DNA from: a phage
Reading direction: 5' to 3' (one strand)
Sequence record: PZ495249.1
DNA length: 64,000 nucleotides
Shown here: positions 5,847-55,760 of the stretch, piece by piece
Numbering within the stretch: position 1 is the first letter of the stretch
Layout: every line of letters starts with the position of its first letter
Notes under the pieces: generated by a model
Databases searched by the model: none
Told to the model about the DNA's origin: nothing
The model's input: the letters and a program-made list of their open reading frames with translations, nothing else
Made by a program: the position numbers and the translations under genes

Positions 5847-6410
5847 ATGATCTTCCACATTACTCCCTATCTTTCTGGTGATATCGGCAAAGGCATCAAC
5901 GATACCATCCGTGAACTGCCGGAAGATAGTTGGATTTGCTTGAGGGATATCGACACGATGTTCCTACTACCAGAACAACCGATGTGGCTTGAAACCCTCG
6001 TCCGTTCTAACCCAGAGTATGATGTTATTGGTGCATCATGCAACCGCTTGGGATCTACTTACCAATTGTTCGGTAACGAAATAAGTGACGATTCAGACAT
6101 ACGCAATCACATAGAAATTGCGAAAGCAGCCCGAACAGCCTGGGGCAATAGCATTGAAGATGTTCCTCTGGGAGTACCACTTGCAGGATTCTTCTTATTA
6201 TTCAGGAAGAGTTTGTGGCAAGAAATTCCATTCGAAGAAAGATCTATTCAATTCGATTTAATCTTCTCTAATACTCTACACGCAGCAGGAAAGCGATTAG
6301 GAATCATGCGAGGAATGTATCTGTTCCATACTTATCGTCTTGGAGCAATCGATCCACGTAGAGCCATTTCGCATCTCATTCACTGCCAGGATATGGAGAA
6401 GGTAATATGA
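5847..6410 (+). CDS. hypothetical protein, possible small GT-A-like glycosyltransferase
   Basis: 187 aa; RBS ggagggagaa; DxD-like RDID motif; first gene of a three-gene block. Confidence 0.3.
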   Translation: MIFHITPYLSGDIGKGINDTIRELPEDSWICLRDIDTMFLLPEQPMWLETLVRSNPEYDVIGASCNRLGSTYQLFGNEISDDSDIRNHIEIAKAARTAWGNSIEDVPLGVPLAGFFLLFRKSLWQEIPFEERSIQFDLIFSNTLHAAGKRLGIMRGMYLFHTYRLGAIDPRRAISHLIHCQDMEKVI

Positions 6411-6436
6411 TTGATAATTTAAGGAGGATGTTAAAC

Positions 6437-7405
6437 ATGCTTGTTCATAAGCCCCGCTTATATTGTGATAACAAGTTAGGGAGTGGGTGCGACTATCACC
6501 GAGTGGTGATGCCTTTTGCTGATAATAAATTCAAACCAAAAGAGAATGTATTGGTGTTCAACCGTATTTATTCTCGTGGTGCAGAAGAGGTTCGCCGTCT
6601 GAAAGAGCGTGGTGTTAAAGTGGTAGTAGATTTAGATGACTTCTATGAACTTAACCCTGAGCATTACCTGGCAAGCGTGTTCACAAGTCACACACAGAAC
6701 ATCATTGACATGGTGAAATTAGCAGATATTGTTATCGTCACCACTGAATATCTGGCTTACAAGGTAAGGCCACTGAATAGAAATGTGGTGGTTATCCGTA
6801 ACGCACTGCCTTTCGACACTGGTCAGTTTACCCTGAGTGAAGATAAAGAGTCAGACACTCCGCTGATATGGGCGGGTGGTGCAAGTCACTATCCTGATCT
6901 ATCTCTTGTCTCGAACAGTTTTGATGATGATTTGTTAACAATTGCCGGATATGAAGAGCACAAGTCTGCTCCTGCTGGTAGTCATCAGCAATTGACAACT
7001 GCCGAGTGGAGAAAAGTCAGACGTAAGCTACCAAATGCACAATACAAACCAGCAGTACATCATTTAGGCGAGTATATGTCGGTGTACGATGGTCATGCCG
7101 TAGCTATTGCTCCCTTGGTTGATAACGACTTCAATGCTTGTAAAAGCAACTTGAAGATCCTGGAGGCAGGAGCTAAGGGACTACCTATCATTTGTTCTAA
7201 GGTGTTACCATATTATAATCCGGTGGATGCTAACGTGGTGTTTTATGCTGAATCCCGCGCAGAATGGCACTACGAGGTGGTGAAACTTCTTCGTAATCCA
7301 AACTACGCAGAGGATCGTGGTTTAATGCTTGCAGAACACGTCAGAACACATTACAATCTTGATGATGCAAATGAATTGCGCCGACAAGTGATCGAAAGTT
7401 TATAA
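6437..7405 (+). CDS. putative GT-B glycosyltransferase, paralog A
   Basis: Shares DGH.V.IAPLVDN.FN.(A/C)KSNLKILEAGAKGLP.ICS and MDLDD blocks with the next gene; start chosen at third in-frame ATG by RBS spacing (6407 and 6428 also possible). Confidence 0.5.
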   Translation: MLVHKPRLYCDNKLGSGCDYHRVVMPFADNKFKPKENVLVFNRIYSRGAEEVRRLKERGVKVVVDLDDFYELNPEHYLASVFTSHTQNIIDMVKLADIVIVTTEYLAYKVRPLNRNVVVIRNALPFDTGQFTLSEDKESDTPLIWAGGASHYPDLSLVSNSFDDDLLTIAGYEEHKSAPAGSHQQLTTAEWRKVRRKLPNAQYKPAVHHLGEYMSVYDGHAVAIAPLVDNDFNACKSNLKILEAGAKGLPIICSKVLPYYNPVDANVVFYAESRAEWHYEVVKLLRNPNYAEDRGLMLAEHVRTHYNLDDANELRRQVIESL

Positions 7406-7413
7406 GGAGTTCT

Positions 7414-8358
7414 ATGCCTAACATTGTGCTTGACACACGCGACGGACATAATTATAGTGTCTGTGATTTCCATAGAATTATCCTTCCATACAAACGAGCG
7501 CTCACCATTAACCCACAACACAATATCTTCGTGTTCAATGGTGTGCCTACTCGTGGGAAGTCAGGATTCCTGGCTCTCAAACAACTTGGTTTCAAAATGG
7601 TTATGGATCTTGATGACTCTCTACATATTCCAGAAGGACATATGCTTGAGGACTTGTTTGATACCCGTATCCGTGATGACCTCAAGTGGTTTTTGGAACG
7701 GAGTGATTTGGTAACAACAACTACTCCTGCTCTCCAGAAAGAACTCTCAGAATATAATGACAACGTGCATATTGTGCCGAATGGTTTGCCTTTCGATGAA
7801 TGGCAATTCACCATAACAAAGGATCGTTATTCTAAGAGTCCACTGGTGTGGGCTGGCAGTGAAACCCATAAACATGACTTGGCAATCCTACCGCCCCTCG
7901 GTAAGATGCTAACACTCTGCGGATTCCGTAGAGACAAAGAAGAGCTAAGTAGCTTGCAATGGATATTGATACGAGAAGATATTCAACCTGATTGTATCTA
8001 TGAAGGTGTCCGACCATACGCCACTTACATGGAATCGTATGACGGTCATCAGGTGAGCATTGCTCCACTTGTGGATAATCCTTTTAATAATGCAAAAAGC
8101 AATCTCAAGATTCTTGAGGCTGGAGCCAAAGGCTTACCGCTGATTTGTTCTCCTCGTGAGAATTATTTCACCGAAGAGTTTAAGGATCTGGTTTACTTTG
8201 CCGATTCATTATCCGAATGGAAAGATCTGGTAGAATACTTAGTAGAGTCTCCAGATATTTGTGTTGAAAAGGGAATGGCCTTAGCCAAATATGTACGTGC
8301 TCAATACAGTATTGACGCATTAAACGAGACTCGTAGATTACTTATTGAGAGGTTGTAA
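7414..8358 (+). CDS. putative GT-B glycosyltransferase, paralog B
   Basis: Tandem paralog of 6437..7405 with the same conserved C-terminal block. Confidence 0.5.
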   Translation: MPNIVLDTRDGHNYSVCDFHRIILPYKRALTINPQHNIFVFNGVPTRGKSGFLALKQLGFKMVMDLDDSLHIPEGHMLEDLFDTRIRDDLKWFLERSDLVTTTTPALQKELSEYNDNVHIVPNGLPFDEWQFTITKDRYSKSPLVWAGSETHKHDLAILPPLGKMLTLCGFRRDKEELSSLQWILIREDIQPDCIYEGVRPYATYMESYDGHQVSIAPLVDNPFNNAKSNLKILEAGAKGLPLICSPRENYFTEEFKDLVYFADSLSEWKDLVEYLVESPDICVEKGMALAKYVRAQYSIDALNETRRLLIERL

Positions 8359-8627
8359 TGAACACATTCGATTTTGAATATAACTTGCCGTCCGGCACTC
8401 CTGTAATTGTCGAAGTAGATTTCTTCTACGAAGAACCAAATCCATTGTCTCGTGAAAGTGATTGGGACTTCTACGGTGGACTCATCATTGATGATGTTCG
8501 TGTCTATGATGGAATGGAAGAAATATCCAACGTAAGTATTACAGGTGCAGAAATAGCTTTCCAATTTAAGAAATACAAGGAAGACTTGGAACTTAATTAT
8601 GTAATGGAGAGCAACGAATATTTTTAA
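8358..8627 (+). CDS. hypothetical small protein
   Basis: 89 aa ORF; start overlaps upstream stop. Confidence 0.4.
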   Translation: MNTFDFEYNLPSGTPVIVEVDFFYEEPNPLSRESDWDFYGGLIIDDVRVYDGMEEISNVSITGAEIAFQFKKYKEDLELNYVMESNEYF

Positions 8628-8639
8628 CAGGAGAAACCA

Positions 8640-10409
8640 GTGACACATGTTGTAAATAAGTACGGCTTTAATATTGATTTGAGTCGAGAAGGTCACACTG
8701 GTTGTCCACGTTGTATGAAGAATGGTAGAGATCGTTCACAGAATAACTTGATGGTATATGGGTTAGATAGTGGCGGTGAGCACAAAGGAGCACACTGCTT
8801 CTCATGCGAATTTACCATTCCGAGTCAAGAATGGTTGGATGAACACGGTGAAGAAATTGAAGAGGAGGATATCTTGGGAAGCGAGTTCAACCCACAAATT
8901 CATGATAAACTGAAAGAACAAACCGGAACAAACCCACGAGGCTATCGTGGAATCCGAGAAGATATTTCAAAACCCCTGGGTGTACGTTATGGTTATGATG
9001 CTGAAACAGGCAATGTGACAGACACATATTATCCAACCACTAAGAGCTATCAGATCGCAGGTTATAAACACCGCATTGATCCGAAAGACTTTACGCAACC
9101 CGTAGGGGAAACAGGTAAAGAATGTGACCTGTTCGGTGAGTTTAAATATCGAAACCACAGTGGTACAATCGTCATCGTAGGTGGTGAGCATGACATGCTT
9201 GCAGCTACACAGATGCTGATGGATCATAACAAAGGTGGTAAATACCCTGTGCCAGCCGTTGTCTCTGGTACATGCGGTGAGAGTTCCCTGCACAAGCAAC
9301 TGCAATCACGCTACAAGTTCCTTGATCAGTTCAAGAAAATCATTCTCTGCATGGACAATGATGATGCTGGTAGAGCAGCAGTAGAGAAGTGTGTTAAGAT
9401 TCTACCTCGCAACAAAGTGTACGTGATGGACTTAACTGAGGTTAAAGATCCTAATCAGGCACTTGAAGAAGGGAAGGTTGATCACTTCATTGACCGATTC
9501 TTTAAAGCGAAGATGTACACCCCTGCTGGTGTATACGCATCAAACGTCCTGTACGAGGCTGCATTGGAATGTTTGGAGGCTAAGGTCATAACCCTACCGC
9601 CATTCATGCGACAGGCTGCTAACATGCTTGGAGGCGGTTTGGTGGAGGAAGAGATTACTGTTATTCTGGCTAAAACCAGTATCGGTAAAACTCTCCTGGT
9701 GAATGAGATCACCAAACACATTATCATGGCGCACCCAGAGCATACTCTTGGCGTTCTTTCCTTGGAGGCAACGTACAAGAAGTATTCTCGTAACTTGCTG
9801 TCATCTTTCCTGCACATTCCTCTGCACCGTAAAACGGCAGAAGAGAAACAGGAGATCCTGAAAGCGAATGAGGAGAGAATTCGTAACTTCTACGAGCACG
9901 AAGACGGCACTCCACGTTTCTACGTGTGTGATGACCGAGGAGCTAACGTAGACGTTATCAAGGAAAAGGTTCTGGAGATGATCATCTACTTCGGAGTGAC
10001 AATCCTTGTTATCGACCCTTATTCTGACTTGCTTTCTGGTATGGATGTTTCCGCGCAGGAAGAACTCGCAACTTGGCTGAAACGTATTATGAAAGAGTAC
10101 GGTATCACTATTATCGTAATCTCTCACGTTAAGAAGTCTTCCAATAACAGCAATGAACACATTGTGGAAGATGATGCAATGGGTAGTAGCTTCCTGGCTA
10201 AAGGTGCTGGTATCACCATCGCACTGGAACGTGACAAACAAGCAGAAGATCCAATGGAACGAAACCGTACATATTGCTACATCCTCAAGAACCGTGAGTT
10301 CTCTGAGACAGGTGCAGCAGGTAGTTTCTTCTATGAAATCAAGACTGCTACCCTTCATGATTACGATCAGTACATGAACAAACTGCCTGTACCCGAAGGT
10401 AGTTATTAA
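8640..10409 (+). CDS. bifunctional DNA primase-helicase (T7 gp4-like)
   Basis: N-terminal zinc ribbon CPRCMKNG...CFSCEF, central TOPRIM-like region, Walker A ILAKTSIGKT; GTG start after RBS aggaga. Confidence 0.85.
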   Translation: MTHVVNKYGFNIDLSREGHTGCPRCMKNGRDRSQNNLMVYGLDSGGEHKGAHCFSCEFTIPSQEWLDEHGEEIEEEDILGSEFNPQIHDKLKEQTGTNPRGYRGIREDISKPLGVRYGYDAETGNVTDTYYPTTKSYQIAGYKHRIDPKDFTQPVGETGKECDLFGEFKYRNHSGTIVIVGGEHDMLAATQMLMDHNKGGKYPVPAVVSGTCGESSLHKQLQSRYKFLDQFKKIILCMDNDDAGRAAVEKCVKILPRNKVYVMDLTEVKDPNQALEEGKVDHFIDRFFKAKMYTPAGVYASNVLYEAALECLEAKVITLPPFMRQAANMLGGGLVEEEITVILAKTSIGKTLLVNEITKHIIMAHPEHTLGVLSLEATYKKYSRNLLSSFLHIPLHRKTAEEKQEILKANEERIRNFYEHEDGTPRFYVCDDRGANVDVIKEKVLEMIIYFGVTILVIDPYSDLLSGMDVSAQEELATWLKRIMKEYGITIIVISHVKKSSNNSNEHIVEDDAMGSSFLAKGAGITIALERDKQAEDPMERNRTYCYILKNREFSETGAAGSFFYEIKTATLHDYDQYMNKLPVPEGSY

Positions 10410-10778: not shown

Positions 10779-13364
10779 ATGGGAGCATTTACTTTCGACA
10801 TTGAAAGTAACAACTTGCTTAATGATGAGAGTGTGGATTACCTGTCAAGTCCTTATCGACTGAAAGACAGTTTCGAGATGCACTGTATTGTATGCGAGAG
10901 TCATGACACCGGAGAGATTATTGCTTTCCACGATGGAGACAAGTATCACTTCGATGGTCGTCCTTACGTAGAGACTGACGGGAAATACACTTACAGCCTG
11001 TTAGAATACGAACATCAGGATTACACCCATTTTCCAATGAGCGCATTCCGAGACTTCGTTAAAGGCACTGGTGTATTTGCCAACAAACCTCAGTACAAGA
11101 TTACGAAAGTAGTTGGTCATAACATTATCAACTTTGACTTGTTAGCCATTAAACTCTACTTTAAAATGAATTACAGCGTGAAATACAATACTTGGGATAA
11201 TCAGGATGTAGAAATCTGTGATACCATGATCCTGAGTAAAGTGCTGAACCCTGACCGTTTCGGTGGTCATAGCCTGGCGGAATTATCCAGCAAGGCAGGT
11301 GGTGATGTTAAGCTTGACTTCCGTAAAGATATTCCGGTTGAAGATCGATTCAAAACGTTTGCAGCAGACATGCTCTATTACTGTATTTACGATAACAAAT
11401 CGAACACCGCCGTATATAAATATCTGATGGAAGAATGGGGAGACTACGATAAATGGGCGGAACCATTTATTCTTGAACAACGTATTGCTGATATTATCAC
11501 TCGTCAGGAACACCGTGGCTTCGCTTTCAATATGAAACAAGCCGAAGAGAATATAAAAGATCTTGATTCTAAGATGGAAGCGTGTAGACTTGAGGCTGAA
11601 CCTATTCTTCCTCCGAAACCTGCAACGAAAGGTTATCTGAAAGACTTCATTCCGCCTAAACTCCAGTTTAAGAAGAATGGTGATCCAACGAGTAACATTA
11701 CGAAGTTTGCAGCTAAGCATGGTGGTGAACTGGTTGAACGTGAAGATGGATGGTGGTTGATCGCCTTGGATAAGGAAATGAAACTTCCTATCTCCAGTGA
11801 AGAGCCAATCTGTGAACCTACTGTTCCGGCTACACTGAACGACACGACACACATCAAGAACTGGCTGGTAGGATTAGGCTGGAGTCCTTCTGAGTACAAA
11901 GATAAAGACATTACGTTGAAGTCTGGTACTAAGATTAAAAAGGACGAGGCGCAGATGGAGAAAGCGATTCGCGATTACGTGGATCAAACTTTAGCATCAA
12001 ACTTCTGTCAAGATCGTTGTGACCACCTTGAATGTACGCCTGAAACTCTTGAGTGGAAGCTGCGTGACCGTATTGCTAAGGCAAAAGGTAAAGGTGTGAA
12101 GGTATTGACTAACCCATCATTCACCAAGGGGCAGGAGAAAGAGATTTGTCCTAACTTGGCTGAACTGGGTGAGAAGTTCCCGTATGCTACCCAGATCGTG
12201 GAATACCTGACGTACAAACACCGTCGAAACTCTATTCTCGGTGGTGGTGCAGATTGGGAAGATGATGAAGAGGATCAGGAATACAACAAAGGTTATCTTG
12301 CAGCAGTAAGGGCAGACGGGCGTATTCCAACGCCAGCGGCAACGTGTGACGCTGCTACTTCTCGTATGAAACACCGTCTTGTTGCTAACATTCCTCGTGT
12401 AACCTCTCTATACGGTTTCCAGATGCGTAACATGTTTGGTGTAGAGGTTCCGGCATACTTCCAGATTGGTTATGACTTTGACTCACTTGAGGCGAAGATT
12501 GAATCACATTACTGCTGGAGATATGAAGCAGAGCCGCATGAATATTGTAACGCTCTTCTGTTAGAAAAGCCGCACGATGTTCACTCAATGATGGCACGAC
12601 GCATTACAGAAACTATCGGACGTAAGTTTGAACGTGCTCCGGCTAAATCTGTTAAGTATGGTATCACATACGGCGCTCAGGCTGCGAAGGTGGCTAAGAC
12701 AATCGGTAGTGATATGCACACAGGCCAGATGGTTTATGATGCATTCTGGGAAGCTGCAAAGCCTCTCGCATTACTGAAAGAACGTCTGCATGACTTCTGG
12801 GTTAAAACAGGTAAGAAATACATTCTCGGTATCGACGGACGTAAAGTGCCTACCCGTTCTGCTCACGCTATCCTGAACTCACTTTTCCAGAGTGGCGGGG
12901 TAATCTGTGCGAAACGTGCAATGGTGATTTACGACGACCTGATCGAAGAAGAAGGGCTGGCAGTTGACTTCTTTGTTGACGATTGGAAAAACAAATCCTT
13001 CGTGCAGCAAATGATCGCTTACCACGATGAAGCACAACTTGAGGTTACTCGTGACCTGGTTGAGTTCAAATGGTTCTCCAAAGAATCTCTGGGCTGGATT
13101 CAAGTTGAGGATGAGAAAGAGCAGGAACGAATCGACAAAGAATGTATGGCTAAAGTAAATGCGTGGAAAGCTGAGGAAGAAACTCGTACTGGTAAGATCT
13201 GGGCTAACGTACACGAATCTCCGAAAGGTGGTTGGTTTACTGGCTACAGTCGTGCAGGTGAACTGGCATCCATCGCAGTTAAGAAAGCAGGTGAATTCTA
13301 TGGCCTGAACGTAGAACTGACAGCAGGTTATGACTTAGGTAATTCCTGGGCGTCCTGTCACTGA
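10779..13364 (+). CDS. DNA polymerase, family A, with 3'-5' exonuclease domain
   Basis: Exo I FDIESNN; motif A YDFDSLEAKI; motif B RAPAKSVKYGITYGAQAAK; motif C YHDEAQLEV; 861 aa. Confidence 0.9.
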   Translation: MGAFTFDIESNNLLNDESVDYLSSPYRLKDSFEMHCIVCESHDTGEIIAFHDGDKYHFDGRPYVETDGKYTYSLLEYEHQDYTHFPMSAFRDFVKGTGVFANKPQYKITKVVGHNIINFDLLAIKLYFKMNYSVKYNTWDNQDVEICDTMILSKVLNPDRFGGHSLAELSSKAGGDVKLDFRKDIPVEDRFKTFAADMLYYCIYDNKSNTAVYKYLMEEWGDYDKWAEPFILEQRIADIITRQEHRGFAFNMKQAEENIKDLDSKMEACRLEAEPILPPKPATKGYLKDFIPPKLQFKKNGDPTSNITKFAAKHGGELVEREDGWWLIALDKEMKLPISSEEPICEPTVPATLNDTTHIKNWLVGLGWSPSEYKDKDITLKSGTKIKKDEAQMEKAIRDYVDQTLASNFCQDRCDHLECTPETLEWKLRDRIAKAKGKGVKVLTNPSFTKGQEKEICPNLAELGEKFPYATQIVEYLTYKHRRNSILGGGADWEDDEEDQEYNKGYLAAVRADGRIPTPAATCDAATSRMKHRLVANIPRVTSLYGFQMRNMFGVEVPAYFQIGYDFDSLEAKIESHYCWRYEAEPHEYCNALLLEKPHDVHSMMARRITETIGRKFERAPAKSVKYGITYGAQAAKVAKTIGSDMHTGQMVYDAFWEAAKPLALLKERLHDFWVKTGKKYILGIDGRKVPTRSAHAILNSLFQSGGVICAKRAMVIYDDLIEEEGLAVDFFVDDWKNKSFVQQMIAYHDEAQLEVTRDLVEFKWFSKESLGWIQVEDEKEQERIDKECMAKVNAWKAEEETRTGKIWANVHESPKGGWFTGYSRAGELASIAVKKAGEFYGLNVELTAGYDLGNSWASCH

Positions 13365-13402: not shown

Positions 13403-13633
13403 ATGAAATTAGTATTCCAAACAGACGACATTTTCATGTTCACAAAGGATATGGGAACATATACAGGTGGACAGATTATCATCCTGGGAGATAAAAACGG
13501 ATCATCATTTAATATCTTAGGTGACATTCGTAAGGATGGGGAAGAAAAACCTGTGACTGTAACAGGTTCAGAGAGTTGGTTAGAAACTTTATACCAAACT
13601 GGTGTTATCAAATTTATTGGGGAGAAAAAATGA
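13403..13633 (+). CDS. hypothetical small protein
   Basis: 76 aa ORF; RBS gaggagaaaacaATG. Confidence 0.45.
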   Translation: MKLVFQTDDIFMFTKDMGTYTGGQIIILGDKNGSSFNILGDIRKDGEEKPVTVTGSESWLETLYQTGVIKFIGEKK

Positions 13634-13872
13634 AACTTGTAGAAACAGTAATCACTACCGTAGAATTTGAAGTAGGGGATGTAGTTATGTTCCTGGATGA
13701 AGTTGGCTTTTATAAATTGGGAGATGTAATTGTTCTCCGTAAAGATTCCGAGCCAGAGAGATTCAAAGCTGAGGGTGCAGGGTTTATTGCTGGAGAAGCT
13801 AATGTAACACAGAAATGGCTGCATGATCTTCTGAAAGAAGGTCGAGTGAAACTGTTAGGGGAGTTAAAATAA
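13631..13872 (+). CDS. hypothetical small protein
   Basis: Start chosen at ATG 13631 after RBS ggggagaaaaa; shares MKLV start and LLGELK-like end with the previous gene. Confidence 0.4.
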
Positions 13873-14510
13873 TGGCATTATTCATGACCGTAGATAATCA
13901 AAAGCAAGCAGCATCAGAACTTCTTTCTAAATTGAAGATGGTAGATCCGTTTGCTATGATCGCAGGTGGTGCTCCTCGTGACTGGTACTTTAACACCGTT
14001 GCCAAGGACTTGGACGTATATCTCCGTCTTCCTAACCACAATACCATTGGATTGGTAACTTCCTTGGCTGCAATGGTGGGGATTAAAGATTTCTACCCTA
14101 TCGACAAGATTAAGGAATCAACCTACGCAGAATTACCTAACCTGAAATGGGTGTTTGAAGGTCGTTACAACGGTGTTCAAGTTAATCTGATGGTTATGGA
14201 GAAGGGTGTACGCGAAGAAATTATCAAAGATTTCGACGTGGCTATCTGTCGGGCATGGTTTGATGGGATCGAGTGTCATTACAATGAAGAATTTCAATTC
14301 TGTGTGAAGACTCGTGTTTGCCTGGTTCATGAGAACTACACTGGTAAAGAAGCCCACCTGCGTAAGATGGCTAAACGTTTCCCACAATTCATGTTCTATA
14401 AGAAAGTGGAGATCCCAGAAGAACCGGACGTGAGCTTTGACGCACCTCCAAGCCACGCTAAGGCTGCACCGCTTCCTCGTAAGCTGCCTGATTTCTGTGA
14501 TGAAATTTAA
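13872..14510 (+). CDS. pol-beta-superfamily nucleotidyltransferase (CCA-adding / poly(A) polymerase head-domain-like)
   Basis: IAGGAPRDW...KDLDVYL fits the GGxxRD...DxD head motif of class II tRNA nucleotidyltransferases; 212 aa. Confidence 0.5.
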   Translation: MALFMTVDNQKQAASELLSKLKMVDPFAMIAGGAPRDWYFNTVAKDLDVYLRLPNHNTIGLVTSLAAMVGIKDFYPIDKIKESTYAELPNLKWVFEGRYNGVQVNLMVMEKGVREEIIKDFDVAICRAWFDGIECHYNEEFQFCVKTRVCLVHENYTGKEAHLRKMAKRFPQFMFYKKVEIPEEPDVSFDAPPSHAKAAPLPRKLPDFCDEI

Positions 14511-14514
14511 TAAA

Positions 14515-14550
14515 TAAGGGGTTGACAAGCCCCTCCATTTTATGTTAAGA
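14515..14550 (+). promoter_or_regulatory. hairpin whose loop carries TTGACA; possible promoter TTGACA-N18-TAAGAT
   Basis: GGGG-TTGACAAG-CCCC at 14515..14533 directly upstream of gene 14562. Confidence 0.25.
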
Positions 14551-14561
14551 TGAGGACTTGA

Positions 14562-14977: not shown

Positions 14978-15886
14978 ATGCCAGTAATTAATTCCGAAAT
15001 CGACCGCAAGACTAAACAAGAAGCATTCTGGGCTGAGGGTATTGTAGAATACGTTAAGCTGGATAAGTTTGCAGAGATGAAAGTCTCTTACATTAAAGTC
15101 GCTGGTCAGCCGGATAAGAAAATTGAGTCCACTCACAAAGCTTCCATTCTTCTGAAAGAGAAAGGTGCTGGTAAGGATGATCCAGGTGTTTGGATCGGTC
15201 TGGGTGATGTTAAGCTGCATCCAGAGCATGAAAATCTGCAAGTCAAGAAAGACGACCAGTGGGTGACTATCGAACGTGGTGTTGAAATTACACTGGACGT
15301 TAAGCCTAATGAATGGCAGGGTAAAACTTATTACCAATCATCCAAAGGTAAGATCTTCGTTGTATCTACCGAAGGTGTTCAAGCTGCTGCTCCGAAAGCA
15401 GGAAAAGGTGGTGATAGCACTCCAGCTAAACAACCGTTCAAGAAACGCGATACCGTAGGTATTGAAACTGGTCACGCTGTTAACGGTGCTCTTGAGCTAA
15501 TCCGTGGTGGTGTGAAAGGTGATGCCTTTGAACTCGCAGGTGTAGTACAGTCTGCCACTGTAACGCTGAAAGCAGAAGTTGCTAAGGCTCGTGGTGTGGA
15601 TATCACTGATTACGATCTGGGTGCTTCTGTCGGTCATGCTATCCTGAATGCTTGCCGTGATCACTCTCGCGATGATGTGACCATTGACGAACTGATTGAA
15701 GCTGCTCGCGATGTGCTGGCGCTATCTGATAAGGTGGCTGCTGCAATCCGTGGTGATGCTCCTGTTGCTGAATCCAAACCAGCCGCAGAGAAGCCAAAGA
15801 CAACTCGTAAGCCAAAAGAGGCGGTAAAAGCTCCTGAGCCAGAGCCAGAACCTCCAATGGACTTCGACGACGATATTCCTTTCTAA
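14978..15886 (+). CDS. ssb: single-stranded DNA-binding protein
   Basis: Ends PMDFDDDIPF, the canonical acidic SSB C-terminal tail; Gly/Ala/Pro-rich linker; RBS agaggagaa; sits with polymerase and primase. Confidence 0.8.
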   Translation: MPVINSEIDRKTKQEAFWAEGIVEYVKLDKFAEMKVSYIKVAGQPDKKIESTHKASILLKEKGAGKDDPGVWIGLGDVKLHPEHENLQVKKDDQWVTIERGVEITLDVKPNEWQGKTYYQSSKGKIFVVSTEGVQAAAPKAGKGGDSTPAKQPFKKRDTVGIETGHAVNGALELIRGGVKGDAFELAGVVQSATVTLKAEVAKARGVDITDYDLGASVGHAILNACRDHSRDDVTIDELIEAARDVLALSDKVAAAIRGDAPVAESKPAAEKPKTTRKPKEAVKAPEPEPEPPMDFDDDIPF

Positions 15887-50449: not shown

Positions 50450-50524
50450 TGGTTGTAGCAGATGGAATCGAACCATCATCAATCGGTTATCAGCCGAACG
50501 TATTAGCCGTTATACTATGCCACA
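50450..50524 (-). tRNA. tRNA-Ile (anticodon GAT)
   Basis: 7 bp acceptor with encoded CCA, loop CTGATAA, T arm GATGG-TTCGATT-CCATC; hand-folded. Confidence 0.55.
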
Positions 50525-50530
50525 ATTGTT

Positions 50531-50613
50531 TGGCATCCAGGTGAGGAATCTAACCCCTTGAAACTGGTTTTGGAGGCCAGCAACGGGAACACCCATTTTT
50601 AATCTACCCAGAT
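50531..50613 (-). tRNA. tRNA-like element, possibly Trp (CCA) with aberrant D region
   Basis: Acceptor pairs with two G/U wobbles; loop CTCCAAA; T loop TTAGATT lacks C56; D region about 7 nt too long. Confidence 0.25.
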
Positions 50614-50619
50614 ATTGTT

Positions 50620-50695
50620 TGGAGGCGGGAGCCGGAATCGAACCGACCTGCGACAAGCATATGAAACTTGTGAGTTCCCAGAACTCTATCCCGCA
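50620..50695 (-). tRNA. tRNA-Met (anticodon CAT) with U1/C72 mismatch
   Basis: Loop TTCATAT, T arm GTCGG-TTCGATT-CCGGC, CCA encoded. Confidence 0.5.
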
Positions 50696-50776
50696 CTTTT
50701 GGTTGATAGTAAGAGAATCAAACTCTTCTCACAACGCCGTATGAAAGCGTCCGAAACATCAGCTTCACACTATCAA

Positions 50777-51040
50777 TTAAACACGATGGATTATTTTAAC
50801 TGTCTCACCCTTATCATTCATAAGGTAGGCACTTTCATTCCTATGAATAAAGTCCGTAGAGTTGCCACTAATGACACTTGCAATAACACCATCCAGCTTA
50901 TCATAACCTTCAAAATGATATTGGATGTGTATATTTCCATCAAGTTCTATATAATGTTCTTCTTCATCTACCTCGTAAGGTACTGAGTCATAAATTTTTG
51001 TCCCTTTGGGGAACTTGCGAACTATTTTCAATGTATACAT
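50777..51040 (-). CDS. hypothetical protein inside the tRNA array
   Basis: 87 aa; RBS gaaggaaa. Confidence 0.4.
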   Translation of the reverse strand: MYTLKIVRKFPKGTKIYDSVPYEVDEEEHYIELDGNIHIQYHFEGYDKLDGVIASVISGNSTDFIHRNESAYLMNDKGETVKIIHRV

Positions 51041-51124
51041 AGTATTTCCTTCGTAGTGTTTATATTAGTAATATGCCGTCCCAAGCCGAACGGCGATTAG
51101 TGTTTTAGCTTGGCATTGATAATA

Positions 51125-51199
51125 TGGTACTTCCTGGAGGAATCGAACCACCGACGCTCACCTTGTAAGGATGACGTTCTACCATTGAACTAAGGAAGT
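51125..51199 (-). tRNA. tRNA-Val (anticodon TAC)
   Basis: D arm GTTC-AATGGTA-GAAC, loop CTTACAA, T loop TTCGATT. Confidence 0.6.
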
Positions 51200-51272
51200 A
51201 TGGCGGGGATTTTCCGCACTGTCTATCGCGATATGGACTCGGACAGTGTTCTCGGCTAAATACCCCATTGTT

Positions 51273-51359
51273 TGGTACATCAGGTCAGACTCGAACTGAC
51301 ACGCCCTCACGAGCACTGGAACCTAAATCCAGGGCGTCTACCAATTTCGCCACTGATGC
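51273..51359 (-). tRNA. tRNA-Leu (anticodon TAG), long variable arm
   Basis: Loop TTTAGGT, 15 nt variable arm, T loop TTCGAGT. Confidence 0.6.
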
Positions 51360-51367
51360 ATTTAATT

Positions 51368-51444
51368 TGGTGGAGAAGTGGAGAATCGAACTCCATACTC
51401 GAAGGTGCAAACCTCGTGTTTTAACCGAATATTACTACATCCCC
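51368..51444 (-). tRNA. tRNA-Ala (anticodon TGC)
   Basis: Loop TTTGCAC; G3/U70 wobble in the acceptor stem (Ala identity element); T arm TGGAG-TTCGATT-CTCCA. Confidence 0.6.
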
Positions 51445-51506
51445 AATTTGTATACACTACACAGAAGATAGGTCTGATTGCCTCGGCAGTTGCCGTAGTG
51501 TTTATC

Positions 51507-51582
51507 TGGTACGGATGGAAGGAGTCGAACCTCCGACGCAGGGCTTCGTAGACCCTCGTTCTATCCACTGAACTACACCCGT
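51507..51582 (-). tRNA. tRNA-Arg (anticodon ACG)
   Basis: D arm GTTC-AGTGGATA-GAAC, loop CTACGAA, T arm GGAGG-TTCGACT-CCTTC. Confidence 0.7.
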
Positions 51583-51588
51583 ATTGTT

Positions 51589-51663
51589 TGGTGCAGAGTG
51601 TTGGTAACGATCCAACCTGTGTGGCTTTTCAGACCACCACTAATCCATCTCAGTTAACTCTGC
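51589..51663 (-). tRNA. tRNA-Phe (anticodon GAA)
   Basis: Loop CTGAAAA; T loop ATCGTTA (A54/U58 covariation). Confidence 0.6.
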
Positions 51664-51669
51664 ATAATC

Positions 51670-51745
51670 TGGTCAGTGAGAGAGGACTCGAACCTCCAAC
51701 AGCTACGCCCCAAACGTAACACTCTACCACTTGAGCTACTCACTG
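51670..51745 (-). tRNA. tRNA-Pro (anticodon TGG)
   Basis: C1-G72 first pair typical of bacterial tRNA-Pro; loop TTTGGGG. Confidence 0.6.
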
Positions 51746-51752
51746 ATAAATC

Positions 51753-51827
51753 TGGCTACAGGTCTTGGGATCGAACCAAGTCATACGGTGGTCAAAGCAC
51801 CGTGCCTTCCCATTTGGCTACCCTGTA
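51753..51827 (-). tRNA. tRNA-Gln (anticodon TTG)
   Basis: U1-A72 and 3 bp D stem GCC/GGC as in E. coli tRNA-Gln; loop CTTTGAC. Confidence 0.6.
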
Positions 51828-51834
51828 ATTAAAT

Positions 51835-51922
51835 TGGTATCGTGGACGAGATTCGAACTCGCAAGGGATTACTCCCGCCAGATTGAAAGTCTGGTTACTT
51901 AGGCCGTTTTGTATACCACGAT
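51835..51922 (-). tRNA. long-variable-arm (type II) tRNA with anticodon loop CTTTCAA (anticodon TTC); isotype ambiguous
   Basis: Perfect acceptor ATCGTGG/CCACGAT, anticodon stem CCAGA/TCTGG, 15 nt variable arm with GGGA-GTAA-TCCC stem, T arm GCGAG-TTCGAAT-CTCGT. Confidence 0.45.
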
Positions 51923-52025
51923 ATAAAATTTCTTAAAGAGAACTGCTGAAAGTTGAAGGAGAAAACCATGAGCGAAAAGAGAAAAGGTTTCCAGCAGTTC
52001 CATTTAAAAAATCTCGTAGGGTTGT

Positions 52026-52104
52026 TGGCGCGGGTGACAGGATTCGAACCTGCGACGAACTGGGTGGAAGCCAGACACTCTACCAAACTGAGTTACACAC
52101 GCGC
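52026..52104 (-). tRNA. tRNA-Gly (anticodon TCC)
   Basis: Loop CTTCCAC, T arm GCAGG-TTCGAAT-CCTGT; D region slightly long. Confidence 0.5.
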
Positions 52105-52170
52105 TGATTAACAACTCTATAATACTACTCTACTACATTTTAGCCCTCGTTGTCAAGGGCTTTTGACAAA

Positions 52171-52497
52171 TTATTTCAGAAGTTTTTCCAAACCTTGCTT
52201 CATCGCATACTCTATGAAGAAGTTTAGTTCACCGATTAACTCTGGTTCCCACTGGTCTTCCAAGCCATAACATGAACAATGTCCACCATGAACTTCATAA
52301 AACTTATTGTCACGCTTATCGTAGAAGTAAACATCGGATGATCCAGTGTAGCACTCATACGTATAATCTGCGTACAGGATGATAATATCATCTTCTGTTA
52401 GATCAACATGATAATCACTCATCACTTGATCGAAGTCTGAAAAGTCGTTATCATACACGTCAACATGCAGATACTTTTCTAATTCTTGTTTATCCAT
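52171..52497 (-). CDS. hypothetical acidic protein inside the tRNA array
   Basis: 108 aa; strong RBS aagaggaggaaac; HGGHCSCYG motif. Confidence 0.5.
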   Translation of the reverse strand: MDKQELEKYLHVDVYDNDFSDFDQVMSDYHVDLTEDDIIILYADYTYECYTGSSDVYFYDKRDNKFYEVHGGHCSCYGLEDQWEPELIGELNFFIEYAMKQGLEKLLK

Positions 52498-52737
52498 GTT
52501 TCCTCCTCTTTAGAATATGTGGGGCAGTGACGGATACCCCTTTGGGTGACAAACCCTACGTTCGGAAGCTCGGTCAGACTGACACAAAACACGAAGTCAA
52601 ATGTCCTTCCTCCCTGCTGTCGATTGGAGAGAGCCGATCCCCTCTGAACTTCATTTAAGCGCGATACCACTTAGGGCTGTCTAACACTTTCCTGAACTTA
52701 CCAATCCACCTAATCCCAGTCACGGTTTCGGATTTTC

Positions 52738-52813
52738 TGGTGCTCCCACACTGAATCGAACAGTGATTTGCGGGTTACAAAGCCGCAGTAATAGGCCATT
52801 ATACGATAGGAGC
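52738..52813 (-). tRNA. tRNA-Thr (anticodon TGT)
   Basis: T arm CACTG-TTCGATT-CAGTG, loop TTTGTAA closed by a C/C mismatch. Confidence 0.55.
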
Positions 52814-52819
52814 AAATTT

Positions 52820-52895
52820 TGGCGGGCAATATTGGATTCGAACCAATTACCATTCGGTTAACAGCCGACCGCACATCCGTATGTGCTTATCACCC
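52820..52895 (-). tRNA. tRNA-Asn (anticodon GTT)
   Basis: Loop CTGTTAA, T arm ATTGG-TTCGAAT-CCAAT, acceptor with two G/U pairs. Confidence 0.55.
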
Positions 52896-52973
52896 ATGTT
52901 CTTCGTTAAGAGTAGGCGCGTTTCATCAGTCGCCTCGTGTTATTTTCTCCTGTTTCCAGGCTCCCTTTAGTGC

Positions 52974-53096
52974 TCGCGAGGGAGGGATTCGAACCACTCA
53001 CCTCTGCCAGAGCCAACCAGATCTTTCGGGTAATTACTCCGTCCAACCATTTGATTAACCTGCTGGCAGCGTCCATCGCCCTTAGACTGCCTCGCG
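52974..53096 (-). ncRNA. tRNA-like element, 123 nt, perfect 7 bp acceptor but weak T stem (pseudo-tRNA or tRNA with insertion)
   Basis: Acceptor CGCGAGG/CCTCGCG, T loop TTCGAAT present, about 35 nt more than a type II tRNA. Confidence 0.2.
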
Positions 53097-53136
53097 TCTG
53101 TCAATTCAGATGCCACTAAAGCTCTCTCAACTAATT

Positions 53137-53220
53137 TGGTGTGGGTAGATGGATTCGAACCACCGCGCCTTTCGGATCAGATTTACAGTCTGGTGCATTC
53201 AGCCACTCTGCCATACCCAC
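53137..53220 (-). tRNA. tRNA-Tyr (anticodon GTA), long variable arm
   Basis: Loop CTGTAAA, T arm GGTGG-TTCGAAT-CCATC, CCA encoded. Confidence 0.7.
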
Positions 53221-53226
53221 ATTGTT

Positions 53227-53303
53227 TGGTGCGCCGGAAAGGATTCGAACCTTTAGTCCTCTCATTAAAAGTGAGATGCCTTATCCAGTTTAGCTACCGA
53301 CGC
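53227..53303 (-). tRNA. tRNA-Lys (anticodon TTT)
   Basis: D arm GCTA-AACTGGATAA, loop CTTTTAA, T arm AAAGG-TTCGAAT-CCTTT. Confidence 0.7.
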
Positions 53304-53443
53304 ATAAATTTTCTTTAGGATAGGAAGTGTGGGGCACTTCACTATTTATATCGGTGATGGTTGCCGCCATCTGCCGAAAGTTTACTCTATCTAAGTAAGA
53401 GTCGAAACGCTACACGAATAGTATTTCTATCATAAAGAAAACT

Positions 53444-53529
53444 TGGCGGAAGAGGGGAGGGTTGAACTCCCACGCCCTTTCGGACGGCAGTTTAGCAAAC
53501 TGCTATGGCTACCATTTCATCACTCTTCC
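53444..53529 (-). tRNA. tRNA-Ser (anticodon GCT), long variable arm
   Basis: Loop TTGCTAA, 14 nt variable arm, T arm GGGAG-TTCAACC-CTCCC. Confidence 0.65.
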
Positions 53530-53537
53530 ATTTTGTT

Positions 53538-53614
53538 TGGCAGTCGCGACGGGTTACGATCCCGCATTCTCTCCCGTGACAGGGGAGTACCATTACCAAG
53601 CCAGCCCCGCGACT
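53538..53614 (-). tRNA. tRNA-Asp (anticodon GTC)
   Basis: Anticodon arm CTCCC-CTGTCAC-GGGAG; T loop ATCGTAA. Confidence 0.65.
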
Positions 53615-53621
53615 ATTAATT

Positions 53622-53711
53622 TGGAGGAAGATAATGGAGTCGAACCATCACCGTATCACTACAATGGGCCAGGGTTCAAATCTGGTTGCGTACCACTACG
53701 CCCTATCTTCC
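53622..53711 (-). tRNA. tRNA-Ser (anticodon TGA), long variable arm
   Basis: Acceptor GGAAGAT/ATCTTCC, loop TTTGAAC, long variable arm. Confidence 0.55.
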
Positions 53712-53775
53712 AATCTATACTTCTTAGTCTATCATACTTTTCAATCGGTTGTCAATAGCTTTTTGAAAATTATTT

Positions 53776-53853
53776 TGGTCGGGGAGATAGGACTCGAACC
53801 TACATTTCCTCCATTACGCTATACGGCTTAGAAGACCGCCACGGTACACCCCG
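53776..53853 (-). tRNA. tRNA-like element, possibly Arg (TCT), with aberrant D region
   Basis: T arm GTAGG-TTCGAGT-CCTAT and arm GCGGT-CTTCTAA-GCCGT present, but no canonical D arm and 19 nt between anticodon and T arms. Confidence 0.3.
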
Positions 53854-53881
53854 ATCTCTTAGTGCTGACTATAACATAACT

Positions 53882-54052
53882 TATTCGTTACTGTCAAGCT
53901 CTTTTTTAATTTCTTTTCTTGCTTTCTGACGTTCAGTGGCTTTACACACTTCCTGCCAAGATTCGTACTCGTCACCTTTACGGTAGCCACGGCTACGACA
54001 AAGGGAGCAGAGACAACCTTCTTGACGATATTTCAAACCATGAGGTTTCATA
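53882..54052 (-). CDS. hypothetical small Cys-rich protein (not in ORF track, 56 aa)
   Basis: ATG after strong RBS aaggaggatatATG; MKPHGLKYRQEGCLCSLCRSRGYRKGDEYESWQEVCK. Confidence 0.4.
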
Positions 54053-54064
54053 TATCCTCCTTAA

Positions 54065-54139
54065 TTGGTGAGCATTACCAGATTCGAACTGGTGTCTTTC
54101 GGGTTTAGAATCCTACGCTTTACCGCTAAGCTAAATGCC
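54065..54139 (-). tRNA. tRNA with anticodon CTA (candidate amber suppressor); low-confidence fold
   Basis: Acceptor GGGCATT/AATGCTC, D arm GCTT-AGCGGTA-AAGC, T arm ACCAG-TTCGAAT-CTGGT, loop TTCTAAA; anticodon stem has two mismatches. Confidence 0.35.
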
Positions 54140-54371
54140 CTTCGTAAATGTCACGACTATCAGGATCGTGATACAATTCTGCAATTTCTTTACTTAAAGT
54201 AGCTCTCAGTATAATCCCTTTGTGCGAAACAATCAAGTAGATTTTCGTTTCACTTACATCTCCAGGGGCTAAGAGTTTACCTCTTACAATCCGCAAACGT
54301 TCTGCTGAATACCCTTCTTCGAGATCAGCCAACATATCTGCCAACGATTTAGAGAAAGTTAACCGATGCAA
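54126..54371 (-). CDS. hypothetical protein (TTG start, weak)
   Basis: 81 aa ORF with weak RBS; 3' end overlaps the CTA tRNA. Confidence 0.25.
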   Translation of the reverse strand: MHRLTFSKSLADMLADLEEGYSAERLRIVRGKLLAPGDVSETKIYLIVSHKGIILRATLSKEIAELYHDPDSRDIYEGHLA

Positions 54372-55459: not shown

Positions 55460-55550
55460 TGGTACGGGTGACGAGATTCGAACTCGTAAGATCATCAAAG
55501 ACCTGGGGGATTTTAAGTCCCATGTGTACTGCCAATACCACCACACCCGC
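55460..55550 (-). tRNA. tRNA-Leu (anticodon TAA), long variable arm
   Basis: Anticodon arm GGGA-CTTAAAA-TCCC as in E. coli Leu-UAA; T arm ACGAG-TTCGAAT-CTCGT; 91 nt. Confidence 0.7.
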
Positions 55551-55558
55551 TTTATTTA

Positions 55559-55741: not shown

Positions 55742-55760
55742 AATATTCTCCTCTTTAAGT

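What the first reader, a model, noticed from the sequence alone, without database searches (positions are those of the whole stretch)
13872..14510. Minimal pol-beta-type nucleotidyltransferase resembling the head domain of CCA-adding enzymes
The motif IAGGAPRDW...KDLDV matches the catalytic head of class II tRNA nucleotidyltransferases, but the protein is only 212 aa. In a phage with about 25 tRNA genes this could repair or mature tRNA 3' ends (for example against host tRNA-targeting defences), or it could be an unrelated minimal nucleotidyltransferase.
Basis: partly seen in the sequence, partly recalled or inferred. Interest (0 to 1): 0.5.

Follow-up and report, generated by a model that had tools for sequence, protein, structure and literature searches.

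The report
Short phage CCA-enzyme-like nucleotidyltransferase gene

Summary
The ORF (13872..14510, +, 212 aa) and its motif IAGGAPRDW-x7-KDLDV are real. The gene is under purifying selection.

**Why it is not a canonical CCA-adding enzyme.**
- PF01743 does not hit it.
- Only motif A of the class II invariant residues survives. Motif B (RRD), motif C, motif D (EDxxR) and the third carboxylate are replaced family-wide.
- The fold ends at about residue 180, with no body or tail (tRNA-binding) domain.

**The family.** It is large (2,806 cluster representatives), already catalogued (PF26128; phrog_10174 and phrog_1614; GenBank "nucleotidyltransferase") and found almost only in viruses.

**Context.**
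- All 23 tRNA genes in the window already encode CCA.
- Two family-bearing phages have no tRNA genes at all.
- The gene is linked to the T7-type primase/helicase and PolA genes in 20 of 31 dereplicated lineages, against about 5 expected.

**Verdict.** The class II resemblance is supported; the tRNA-repair idea is not. This is a new member of a known kind, and its substrate is unknown. Interest 0.37.

The parts
13872..14510 (+). CDS of the 212-aa minimal class II-like nucleotidyltransferase (stop codon 14508-14510)
   Evidence: ORF. phrog_10174 at 5.4e-28 and phrog_1614 at 1.5e-24. PF26128 is precomputed on homologues up to 90% identical. AF2 pLDDT 85.5 and 90.4. Purifying selection.
13959..14018 (+). 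Motif A (residues 30-49, IAGGAPRDWYFNTVAKDLDV): GG/RD triphosphate-binding turn and the two catalytic carboxylates D46 and D48
   Evidence: Invariant or at least 90% conserved in 104 homologues. Aligns to G7 G8 R11 D12 D21 D23 of E. coli Cca and to PDB CCA/PAP chains.
14142..14198 (+). Beta4-beta5 hairpin (residues 91-109). It carries the conserved cross-strand pair E96 / N105, in the place where Pol-beta enzymes have the third carboxylate.
   Evidence: AF2 strands 91-99 and 102-109. Position 105 is Q 82% / N 14%; position 96 is E 55% / D 11% / N 16%. Assigning this strand as the third-carboxylate strand is an inference from topology.
14220..14264 (+). Block equivalent to class II motif B (residues 117-131, IIKDFDVAICRAWFD). 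RRD is replaced by K-D-F-D here and by x-F-x in the family.
   Evidence: hhalign aligns D120 F121 D122 .. A124 I125 C126 with R90 R91 D92 .. T94 I95 N96 of Cca at confidence 7-9. Family frequencies; class II invariants.
14337..14384 (+). Last helix of the fold (residues 156-171, YTGKEAHLRKMAKRFP), equivalent to the motif D helix (F..EDPLR..R..RF). E160 and R164 are kept in this clade; D131 of Cca is replaced by A161.
   Evidence: hhalign. Family-wide, only Y156, Y/H162, K165, K/R169 and F170 are conserved.
14412..14507 (+). Disordered, proline-rich, acidic C-terminal tail (residues 181-212, ending ..LPDFCDEI); specific to this clade
   Evidence: pLDDT 45-74. Tail pI 4.4. Not a family-wide feature.
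13627..13872 (+). Small upstream ORF (81 aa from the ATG at 13627). Its stop overlaps the NTase start (TAATG), which suggests translational coupling. It is a paralogue of ORF 13403..13633.
   Evidence: sequence. Paralogy E 3e-08. A small ORF abuts the NTase in the same way in FKP3 and in L012-L015.
14517..14551 (+). Hairpin AGGGGTTGACAAGCCCCT followed by T-rich sequence, overlapping a TTGACA-18-TAAGAT promoter-like site. Probable transcript boundary after the NTase gene.
   Evidence: These are consensus matches only; the total number of such sites is not above the shuffled expectation.
8640..10409 (+). Context: T7 gp4-type DNA primase/helicase
   Evidence: phrog_239 at 1.1e-165. Homologues lie next to the NTase in 51 of 80 viral loci.
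10779..13364 (+). Context: family A DNA polymerase
   Evidence: phrog_17 at 1.5e-110. Homologues lie next to the NTase in 40 of 80 viral loci.
14978..15886 (+). Context: 302-aa protein with an SSB-like C-terminal tip (..PMDFDDDIPF)
   Evidence: Translation. Weak SSB PHROG hits confined to the C-terminus, plus phrog_4477.

Best explanation
The ORF encodes a member of a large, virus-restricted family of single-domain nucleotidyltransferases (Pfam PF26128; PHROG 10174/1614). The family derives from the head and first neck helices of class II tRNA-nucleotidyltransferase/poly(A)-polymerase enzymes.

**Shown.**
- The class II-like fold.
- An intact motif A (GG..RD and the DxD metal ligands).
- Truncation right after the motif D helix.
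- Loss of the class II residues for ribose and base selection.
- Restriction of the family to viruses.
- Tight linkage to the T7-type primase/helicase and PolA genes.
- Independence from phage tRNA genes.

**Inferred mechanism.** The protein still binds an (d)NTP-Mg2+ through motif A. It transfers the nucleotidyl group, without a template, to a hydroxyl acceptor. That acceptor is most probably the 3'-OH of an RNA or DNA end met during the replication phase of infection. A remodelled, aromatic-rich pocket (W38, Y85, F121, W129, Y156, H162, K165) sets a specificity different from CCA.

It is not a measuring CCA-adding enzyme and is not needed to mature this phage's tRNAs.
For: **Fold**
- The top 40 Foldseek PDB hits are all class II CCA/CC/A-adding enzymes or PAP (E 5.5e-06 to 6.5e-04).

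**Sequence**
- The family profile hits PDB CCA/PAP chains at E 0.0012-0.015.
- 46 of 104 members hit PF01743 weakly, best 3.9e-05.
- hhalign against a 60-sequence class II profile gives E 3.5e-05 to 4.7e-05 over about 160 columns.
- Motif A is invariant.

**Family and distribution**
- 2,806 cluster representatives, nearly all 175-220 aa.
- PF26128 is precomputed on close homologues.
- Only 9 MAG contigs among 185,579 species genomes carry the signature.
- 140 related viral predicted structures exist, many of them short and annotated as PAP head domain or tRNA nucleotidyltransferase.

**Context**
- In the window the order is primase/helicase, DNAP, two small ORFs, NTase, unknown, SSB-like. FKP3 has the same order.
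- In DU_RP_I the gene lies between primase and DNAP. In fHe-Kpn01 the sister gene abuts DNAP.
- 20 of 31 dereplicated lineages have the primase/helicase or polymerase within 6 kb, against about 5 expected. The linkage holds across several gene orders.
Against: - No biochemical data exist for any member; none was found.
- The third catalytic carboxylate (E57 of Cca, 96% conserved in class II) has no acidic counterpart. The topologically equivalent strand carries Q/N105, and the alternative hhalign mapping gives T84. Polymerase-type two-metal catalysis is therefore not assured. E96 is acidic in only 66% of members.
- The core is not basic: pI 7.65 here and a family median of 6.9. That is not typical of a free-standing nucleic-acid enzyme.
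- Gene linkage in phage 'middle' regions also holds for host-takeover and anti-defence genes, so synteny does not prove a replication role.
- The lineages counted are not fully independent.
Confidence: 0.6

Rival explanations
1. tRNA 3'-end (CCA) repair or maturation enzyme. It would rebuild CCA ends on phage or host tRNAs damaged by host defences.
For: Nearest structural relatives are CCA-adding enzymes. The phage carries 23 tRNA genes. Full-length CCA enzymes occur in jumbo phages and are read as tRNA repair (PMC7824862). Host cca matters for T4 (Morse & Deutscher 1976, as cited in PMC7693777). This clade keeps D122, E160 and R164 at motif B/D positions.
Against: All 23 tRNA genes encode CCA. 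Family members occur in phages with no tRNA genes. There is no body or tail domain. RRD and EDxxR are not conserved, and D131 of EDxxR is Ala here. PF01743 and my own class II HMM do not hit the protein. Neighbours are replication genes, and no RNA ligase or PNK cluster recurs.
Confidence: 0.12
2. Unregulated RNA-tailing enzyme, poly(A)-polymerase-like or MenT-like. It would add nucleotides to host RNA or tRNA 3' ends to shut down or recycle host RNA.
Against: Gp22 aligns with this family's profile only over motif A, so the phenotype transfers weakly. The pocket residues that give PAP its ATP choice are not conserved. No RNA-binding domain; neutral pI.
Confidence: 0.25
3. Not a polymerase-type enzyme. 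It could be a nucleotide-binding regulator or pseudoenzyme, or an NTase that nucleotidylylates a protein or small molecule, as MntA AMPylates HepT or as antibiotic NTases act.
For: The canonical third-carboxylate position holds Gln/Asn in 96% of the family. There is no nucleic-acid-binding domain and the pI is neutral. The pocket is heavily remodelled.
Confidence: 0.15
4. Spurious ORF, or a chance motif with no function.
For: None beyond the short length and the lack of a direct Pfam hit in the local library.
Against: Thousands of homologues. A confident fold. Purifying selection. Conserved synteny.
Confidence: 0.01

Closest known systems
Class II tRNA nucleotidyltransferases and bacterial poly(A) polymerase I (PF01743 head; e.g. 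E. coli Cca, PcnB/3AQL, B. stearothermophilus 1MIV)
   Same: The Pol-beta head fold and the first neck helices. Motif A (GGxxRD-x8-DxD) with identical spacing. The order of secondary-structure elements up to the motif D helix.
   Different: About half the size: no motif E and no body or tail domain. The class II invariants E57, R62, D87, RRD, N96, D108, G112, D115, D131, R134 and R137 are not conserved. Below the PF01743 threshold. Virus-restricted.
PDB 2LA3, S. pneumoniae NP_344798.1: a 191-aa stand-alone 'CCA-adding enzyme head domain' protein
   Different: Bacterial, with no detectable sequence similarity: it is absent from the profile searches. I found nothing on its function.
Short podovirus NTases: Klebsiella phage fHe-Kpn01 Gp22 (182 aa); Pectobacterium phage PP47 gp28 / Q19 gp24; LKD16 'nucleotidyltransferase'
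   Same: The same truncated architecture and the same PHROG for Gp22 (phrog_1614). Gp22 lies next to the DNA polymerase gene, and the Pectobacterium-phage map legend lists NT directly before DNAP. Structural neighbours in BFVD. The literature annotates them as CCA-type NTases (PMC7291057, PMC7693777).
   Different: Against this family's profile, only motif A aligns. Gp22 keeps FDCNLN at motif B. Toxicity in E. coli was shown for Gp22 only.
Full-length CCA-adding enzymes of jumbo and other phages
   Same: Phage-encoded class II enzymes; 80 viral loci found here.
   Different: Most are 330-460 aa, and some about 615-790 aa. All class II invariants are present. They are interpreted as tRNA repair enzymes (PMC7824862).
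MenT/AbiEii NTase toxins and CD-NTases (cGAS/DncV)
   Same: The Pol-beta superfamily core; small proteins involved in phage-host conflict.

Membership tests
Class II CCA-adding enzyme / poly(A) polymerase (PF01743 family) | Pol-beta-type head-domain fold | tested here: met
Class II CCA-adding enzyme / poly(A) polymerase (PF01743 family) | Motif A: GGxxRD followed by DxD, the two catalytic carboxylates | tested here: met
   G32 G33 R36 D37 D46 D48 align to G7 G8 R11 D12 D21 D23 of Cca and are invariant or at least 91% conserved in the family.
Class II CCA-adding enzyme / poly(A) polymerase (PF01743 family) | Third conserved acidic residue on the strand next to DxD (E57 of Cca; 96% in the class II profile) | tested here: not met
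   Mapping by topology gives N105 (family Q 82% / N 14%). The hhalign mapping gives T84, which is not conserved. Neither is acidic. The neighbour E96 is acidic in 66% of members. Which mapping is right is uncertain, because model coordinates could not be read.
Class II CCA-adding enzyme / poly(A) polymerase (PF01743 family) | Motif B RRD..T.N (ribose and triphosphate recognition; 100% conserved) | tested here: not met
   The aligned block is D120-F121-D122-V-A124-I-C126. In the family, position 121 is F 86%, 122 is D only 16%, and 126 is C/S.
Class II CCA-adding enzyme / poly(A) polymerase (PF01743 family) | Motif C (D108, G112, D115) | tested here: not met
   The aligned positions Y137, F141 and C144 do not match these residues. 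In the family, F141 is 84% conserved while positions 137 and 144 vary.
Class II CCA-adding enzyme / poly(A) polymerase (PF01743 family) | Motif D EDxxR, the amino-acid template for CTP and ATP | tested here: not met
   The window has E160-A161-H-L-R164, so D becomes A. Family-wide, position 160 is D/E 55%, 161 is variable and 164 is variable. The conserved residues are instead Y/H162 and K165.
Class II CCA-adding enzyme / poly(A) polymerase (PF01743 family) | Neck motif E plus body and tail domains that bind the tRNA elbow | tested here: not met
   The fold ends at about residue 177-180 and the rest is disordered. Family members are 175-220 aa. Viral class II enzymes are mostly 330-460 aa.
Class II CCA-adding enzyme / poly(A) polymerase (PF01743 family) | Score above Pfam PF01743 gathering threshold | tested here: not met
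   No PF01743 hit at E up to 10 for the window protein. 46 of 104 relatives give weak hits, best 3.9e-05. My own class II HMM has no hit at E up to 1.
Class II CCA-adding enzyme / poly(A) polymerase (PF01743 family) | CCA addition to tRNA, or poly(A) addition to RNA | not testable with these tools
   Needs biochemistry.
Phage short NTase family (Pfam PF26128; phrog_10174 / phrog_1614) | Significant full-length profile match | tested here: met
   phrog_10174 at 5.4e-28 (residues 5-129) and phrog_1614 at 1.5e-24 (residues 11-201). Family HMM 1.9e-63. PF26128.2 is precomputed on homologues 46-90% identical. PF26128 is not in the local Pfam copy, so it could not be scored directly.
Phage short NTase family (Pfam PF26128; phrog_10174 / phrog_1614) | Single-domain architecture of about 175-220 aa and the family signature (Q10, AGGAPRDW, D.D.Y, Y85, Q/N105, F121, C126, W129, Y156, Y/H162, K165, F170) | tested here: met
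   All signature residues are present in the window protein (N at 105, H at 162; A replaces S at 124).
Phage short NTase family (Pfam PF26128; phrog_10174 / phrog_1614) | Viral origin, located in the replication / nucleotide-metabolism module | tested here: met
CD-NTase (cGAS/DncV-like) | Profile or fold match to CD-NTases | tested here: not met
MenT/AbiEii toxins and MNT-type minimal NTases | Profile or fold match | tested here: not met

The most novel reading that the evidence does not exclude
The family is a replisome-associated, template-independent terminal transferase. Its remodelled pocket has lost the RRD ribose sensor and the EDxxR base template, and holds an amide in place of the third carboxylate. 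This could let it add specific nucleotides, possibly deoxynucleotides, to primer or DNA 3' ends made by T7-type primase/helicase-PolA replisomes. That would be a previously unrecognised accessory activity of phage replication.
Probability: 0.1. Interest if true: 0.8.

Novelty: new member of a known kind. Interest (0 to 1): 0.37.

Why it matters
The family is abundant: thousands of sequence clusters, spanning rV5/phi92-like myoviruses, ICP1, Zobellviridae and T7-like podoviruses. It is routinely labelled 'tRNA nucleotidyltransferase/poly(A) polymerase', yet no member has a known substrate. This analysis shows the label is only half right. The catalytic metal site is class II-like, but everything that makes a CCA-adding enzyme specific for tRNA, ribose, C and A is gone, and the gene travels with the replisome genes rather than with tRNAs. 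That turns a vague annotation into concrete experiments: which acceptor, which nucleotide, and which replisome partner. It also warns against inferring tRNA repair from this motif in tRNA-rich phages.

Tried and rejected
- **Direct sequence searches on the window protein.** phmmer against the PDB found nothing. Pfam, NCBIfam and PADLOC found nothing significant.
- **Homology search with E. coli Cca 1-240.** It returned only relatives at least 87% identical, which was useless for a profile. I built the class II profile from 58 viral class II sequences plus E. coli Cca and PcnB instead.
- **hhalign against single Cca or PcnB sequences.** It aligned motif A only.
- **Idea: the acidic, hydrophobic-ended C-terminal tail is a family-wide replisome-docking tail, like those of T7 gp4/gp2.5 or SSB.** Rejected. 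The frequency is 13% in the family against 10% in the background. It is specific to this clade.
- **Idea: 'KDFDV' is a conserved RRD-type motif B.** Rejected family-wide.
- **Idea: the fHe-Kpn01 Gp22 toxicity applies directly.** Weakened. Only motif A aligns with this family's profile, although both fall in phrog_1614.
- **Other dead ends.** KP34 lacks the gene. N- and C-terminal extensions of 10 longer members have no Pfam domains. The AFDB50 fold library was unavailable.
- **Literature.** Searches for PF26128, 2LA3/NP_344798.1, ICP1, phi92/rV5 and phiKMV NTases found no functional study. The Mom paper mentions a CCA enzyme only as a reagent.
- **Unresolved.** The hhalign mapping of Y85 onto the E57 strand conflicts with the AF2 topology. 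I could not settle this because model coordinates cannot be read.

Full report

Yes. An ATG-initiated ORF runs 13872..14510 on the + strand and encodes 212 aa. Residues 30-49 read IAGGAPRDWYFNTVAKDLDV.

- The ATG overlaps the stop of an upstream 81-aa ORF (TAATG).
- A hairpin and a TTGACA-18-TAAGAT site follow the stop codon.
- Against three relatives, codon differences are mostly synonymous: 15:6, 58:34 and 69:35. The gene is therefore under purifying selection.
- ARAGORN finds 23 tRNA genes at 50450-55838.

**2. Which phage and which family?**

The window is a Stephanstirmvirinae-like myovirus. At the DNA level it matches only Citrobacter phage Tr1, at 78% over 41% of the query. The protein is 77% identical to the 'nucleotidyltransferase' of Klebsiella phage FKP3, a Justusliebigvirus, and 36-51% identical to phi92 gp158 and rV5-like homologues. 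Some of those are annotated 'putative tRNA nucleotidyl transferase/poly(A) polymerase'.

- PHROGs places it in phrog_10174 (5.4e-28) and phrog_1614 (1.5e-24), both named 'nucleotidyltransferase'.
- Close homologues carry a precomputed Pfam PF26128 hit. That model is not in the local Pfam copy.
- An exhaustive profile search finds 2,806 50%-identity cluster representatives at E up to 0.001. Nearly all are 175-220 aa.
- Only 9 contigs among 185,579 species-representative genomes carry the signature. All are from MAGs and several are phage-sized.
- 100 of 102 pattern matches in IMG/VR are confirmed relatives.
- BFVD holds 140 related viral models. Many are short and annotated as PAP head domain or tRNA nucleotidyltransferase.

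The family is therefore known at the annotation level, and it is found almost only in viruses.

**3. Is it class II-like?**

Yes, but distantly.

*Sequence*
- The window protein gives no PF01743, NCBIfam, PADLOC or PDB sequence hit.
- Family profiles hit PDB CCA-adding enzymes and PAP at E 0.0012-0.015, over motif A only.
- 46 of 104 diverse members hit PF01743 weakly, best 3.9e-05.
- hhalign of the family against a 60-sequence class II profile gives E 3.5e-05 to 4.7e-05 over about 160 columns.

*Structure*
- Two AlphaFold2 models (pLDDT 85.5 with 23 sequences, 90.4 with 104) agree on the fold of residues 1-180 and on a disordered tail.
- The top 40 Foldseek hits against the PDB are all class II CCA/CC/A-adding enzymes or bacterial PAP.

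**4. Is it a CCA-adding enzyme?**

The membership test fails on most defining features. In the class II profile, 23 positions are invariant or nearly so: G7, G8, R11, D12, D21, D23, E57, R62, D87, R90, R91, D92, T94, N96, D108, G112, D115, E130, D131, R134, R137, R140 and F141. The phage family keeps only the motif A set (G32, G33, R36, D37, D46, D48) and a terminal K/R-F.

- *Motif B.* RRD aligns, at good confidence, with D120-F121-D122. Family-wide, position 121 is Phe (86%) and position 122 is Asp in only 16%.
- *Motif D.* EDxxR aligns with E160-A161-H-L-R164. The base-reading Asp is Ala here. Family-wide, the conserved residues are instead Y/H162 and K165.
- *Motif C.* Its residues are absent.
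- *Third carboxylate.* E57 has no acidic counterpart. hhalign maps it, at low confidence, to T84. The AF2 topology places the equivalent strand at 102-109. The only conserved polar residue on that strand is Q/N105 (96%), paired across the hairpin with E96, which is acidic in 66% of members. Strand order follows PMC11646218.
- *Domains.* The fold stops right after the motif D helix. There is no motif E and no body or tail domain. Viral full-length class II enzymes are mostly 330-460 aa.

**5. Tests of the tRNA idea**

- All 23 tRNA genes end in a genomically encoded NCCA, so de novo CCA addition is not needed.
- Two phages carrying the family have no tRNA genes: Vibrio phage 1.264.O (Zobellviridae, 47.7 kb) and Ralstonia phage DU_RP_I (Autographiviridae, 40.7 kb).
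- The window holds no second copy of the family and no full-length class II enzyme.

**6. Context**

In the window the order is three glycosyltransferase genes, primase/helicase, a small ORF, PolA, two paralogous small ORFs, NTase, an unknown 132-aa protein and an SSB-like protein ending ..DFDDDIPF. Tail genes follow on the other strand. FKP3 has the same order.

- Among 80 diverse viral loci, at least 51 have a homologous primase/helicase and at least 40 a PolA within a few genes of the NTase. Several gene orders occur: PH-NT-POL, POL-NT-PH, NT-PH-POL and PH-POL-NT.
- Other recurrent neighbours are HNH endonucleases, a 5'-3' exonuclease and dCMP deaminase.
- After dereplication at 70% identity, and keeping only contigs of at least 30 kb, 20 of 31 lineages show the linkage against about 5 expected. 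P is about 3e-4 even with the expectation doubled.
- Two caveats apply. The lineages are related to each other. In T7-like phages, this region also hosts accessory and anti-defence genes.

**7. Literature**

- Short podovirus NTases have been noted as CCA-enzyme-like by HHpred. fHe-Kpn01 Gp22 (182 aa) is toxic in E. coli (PMC7291057).
- 'CCA-nucleotidyltransferases' are frequent in Pectobacterium autographiviruses (PMC7693777).
- Gp22 abuts the DNA polymerase gene. It falls in phrog_1614 and has the same truncated architecture. It aligns with this family's profile only over motif A.
- Jumbo-phage full-length CCA enzymes are read as tRNA repair (PMC7824862).
- I found no biochemical study of this family.

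**8. Most likely mechanism**

*Shown:* a class II-derived head-and-neck fold with an intact metal and triphosphate site, a remodelled aromatic-rich pocket, no tRNA-binding domains, restriction to viruses, and linkage to the replication module.

*Inferred:* the protein binds an (d)NTP-Mg2+ and transfers the nucleotide, without a template, to an acceptor hydroxyl. That acceptor is most probably a nucleic-acid 3' end present during the replication phase. Its specificity is unlike CCA addition. Confidence in this general statement is 0.6.

Sub-hypotheses for what the enzyme does, with rough probabilities:
- RNA tailing of host RNAs or tRNAs: 0.25
- tRNA CCA repair: 0.12
- non-polymerase chemistry or a nucleotide-binding pseudoenzyme: 0.15
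- replisome-linked terminal transferase, the most novel reading: 0.10

The missing third carboxylate and the neutral pI (7.65 here; family median 6.9) are the main reasons for caution.

**9. Verdict**

This is a new member of a known, annotated family whose function is unknown. Interest is moderate (0.37). The gene itself is ordinary. What is worth following up is the family's remodelled active site and its persistent association with the replisome genes.

Noticed in passing
window 13403-13633 and 13627-13872 (+): Two tandem small ORFs (76 and 81 aa) just upstream of the NTase are paralogues of each other (BLASTP E 3e-08). The second is translationally coupled to the NTase (TAATG overlap). A small ORF abuts the NTase in the same way in FKP3 and related contigs. 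Function unknown (weak phrog_31972 hit only).
   Followed up: partly
window 14978-15886 (+): A 302-aa protein (phrog_4477, unknown function) ends in PMDFDDDIPF. By my recollection this matches the C-terminal tip of E. coli SSB (not checked here). It may be a phage SSB, or a mimic that competes for SSB-tail-binding host proteins. No PDB sequence hit.
   Followed up: partly
window 14412-14507 (residues 181-212 of the NTase) and alignment A1: The window's own clade has a disordered Pro-rich linker ending in an acidic stretch with an aromatic residue and a hydrophobic last residue (..LPDFCDEI, ..LDEAWDNDNF, ..AWDECF, ..PWDEEF). This recalls replisome-docking tails. It is not a family-wide feature (13% against 10% background).
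   Followed up: yes
window 54066-54140 (-): ARAGORN calls a tRNA with anticodon CTA ('tRNA-Pyl'). It is most likely a phage amber-suppressor tRNA. It also ends in an encoded CCA.
   Followed up: no
window 5847-8358 (+): Three consecutive glycosyltransferase genes (phrog_14179, then two copies of phrog_7162) lie immediately upstream of the primase/helicase. FKP3 has two in the same place. They could act on DNA or on surface glycans.
   Followed up: no
window 14517-14551 (+): A hairpin (AGGGGTTGACAAGCCCCT) whose loop and 3' arm contain a perfect TTGACA -35 box, followed 18 nt later by TG-n-TAAGAT. This looks like a combined terminator and promoter between the NTase gene and the next gene.
   Followed up: partly
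L168 (Ralstonia phage DU_RP_I) 10904-11545; L165 (fHe-Kpn01) 7894-8442: In T7-like podoviruses the short NTase gene lies exactly between primase and DNA polymerase (DU_RP_I), or overlaps the end of the polymerase gene (fHe-Kpn01). This is the position of T7 genes 4.3-4.7 / 5.3-5.5.
   Followed up: yes
window 51835-51922 (-): The predicted tRNA-Glu is unusually long (88 nt) for a class I tRNA. This may be an ARAGORN boundary or intron call, or an atypical tRNA.
   Followed up: no
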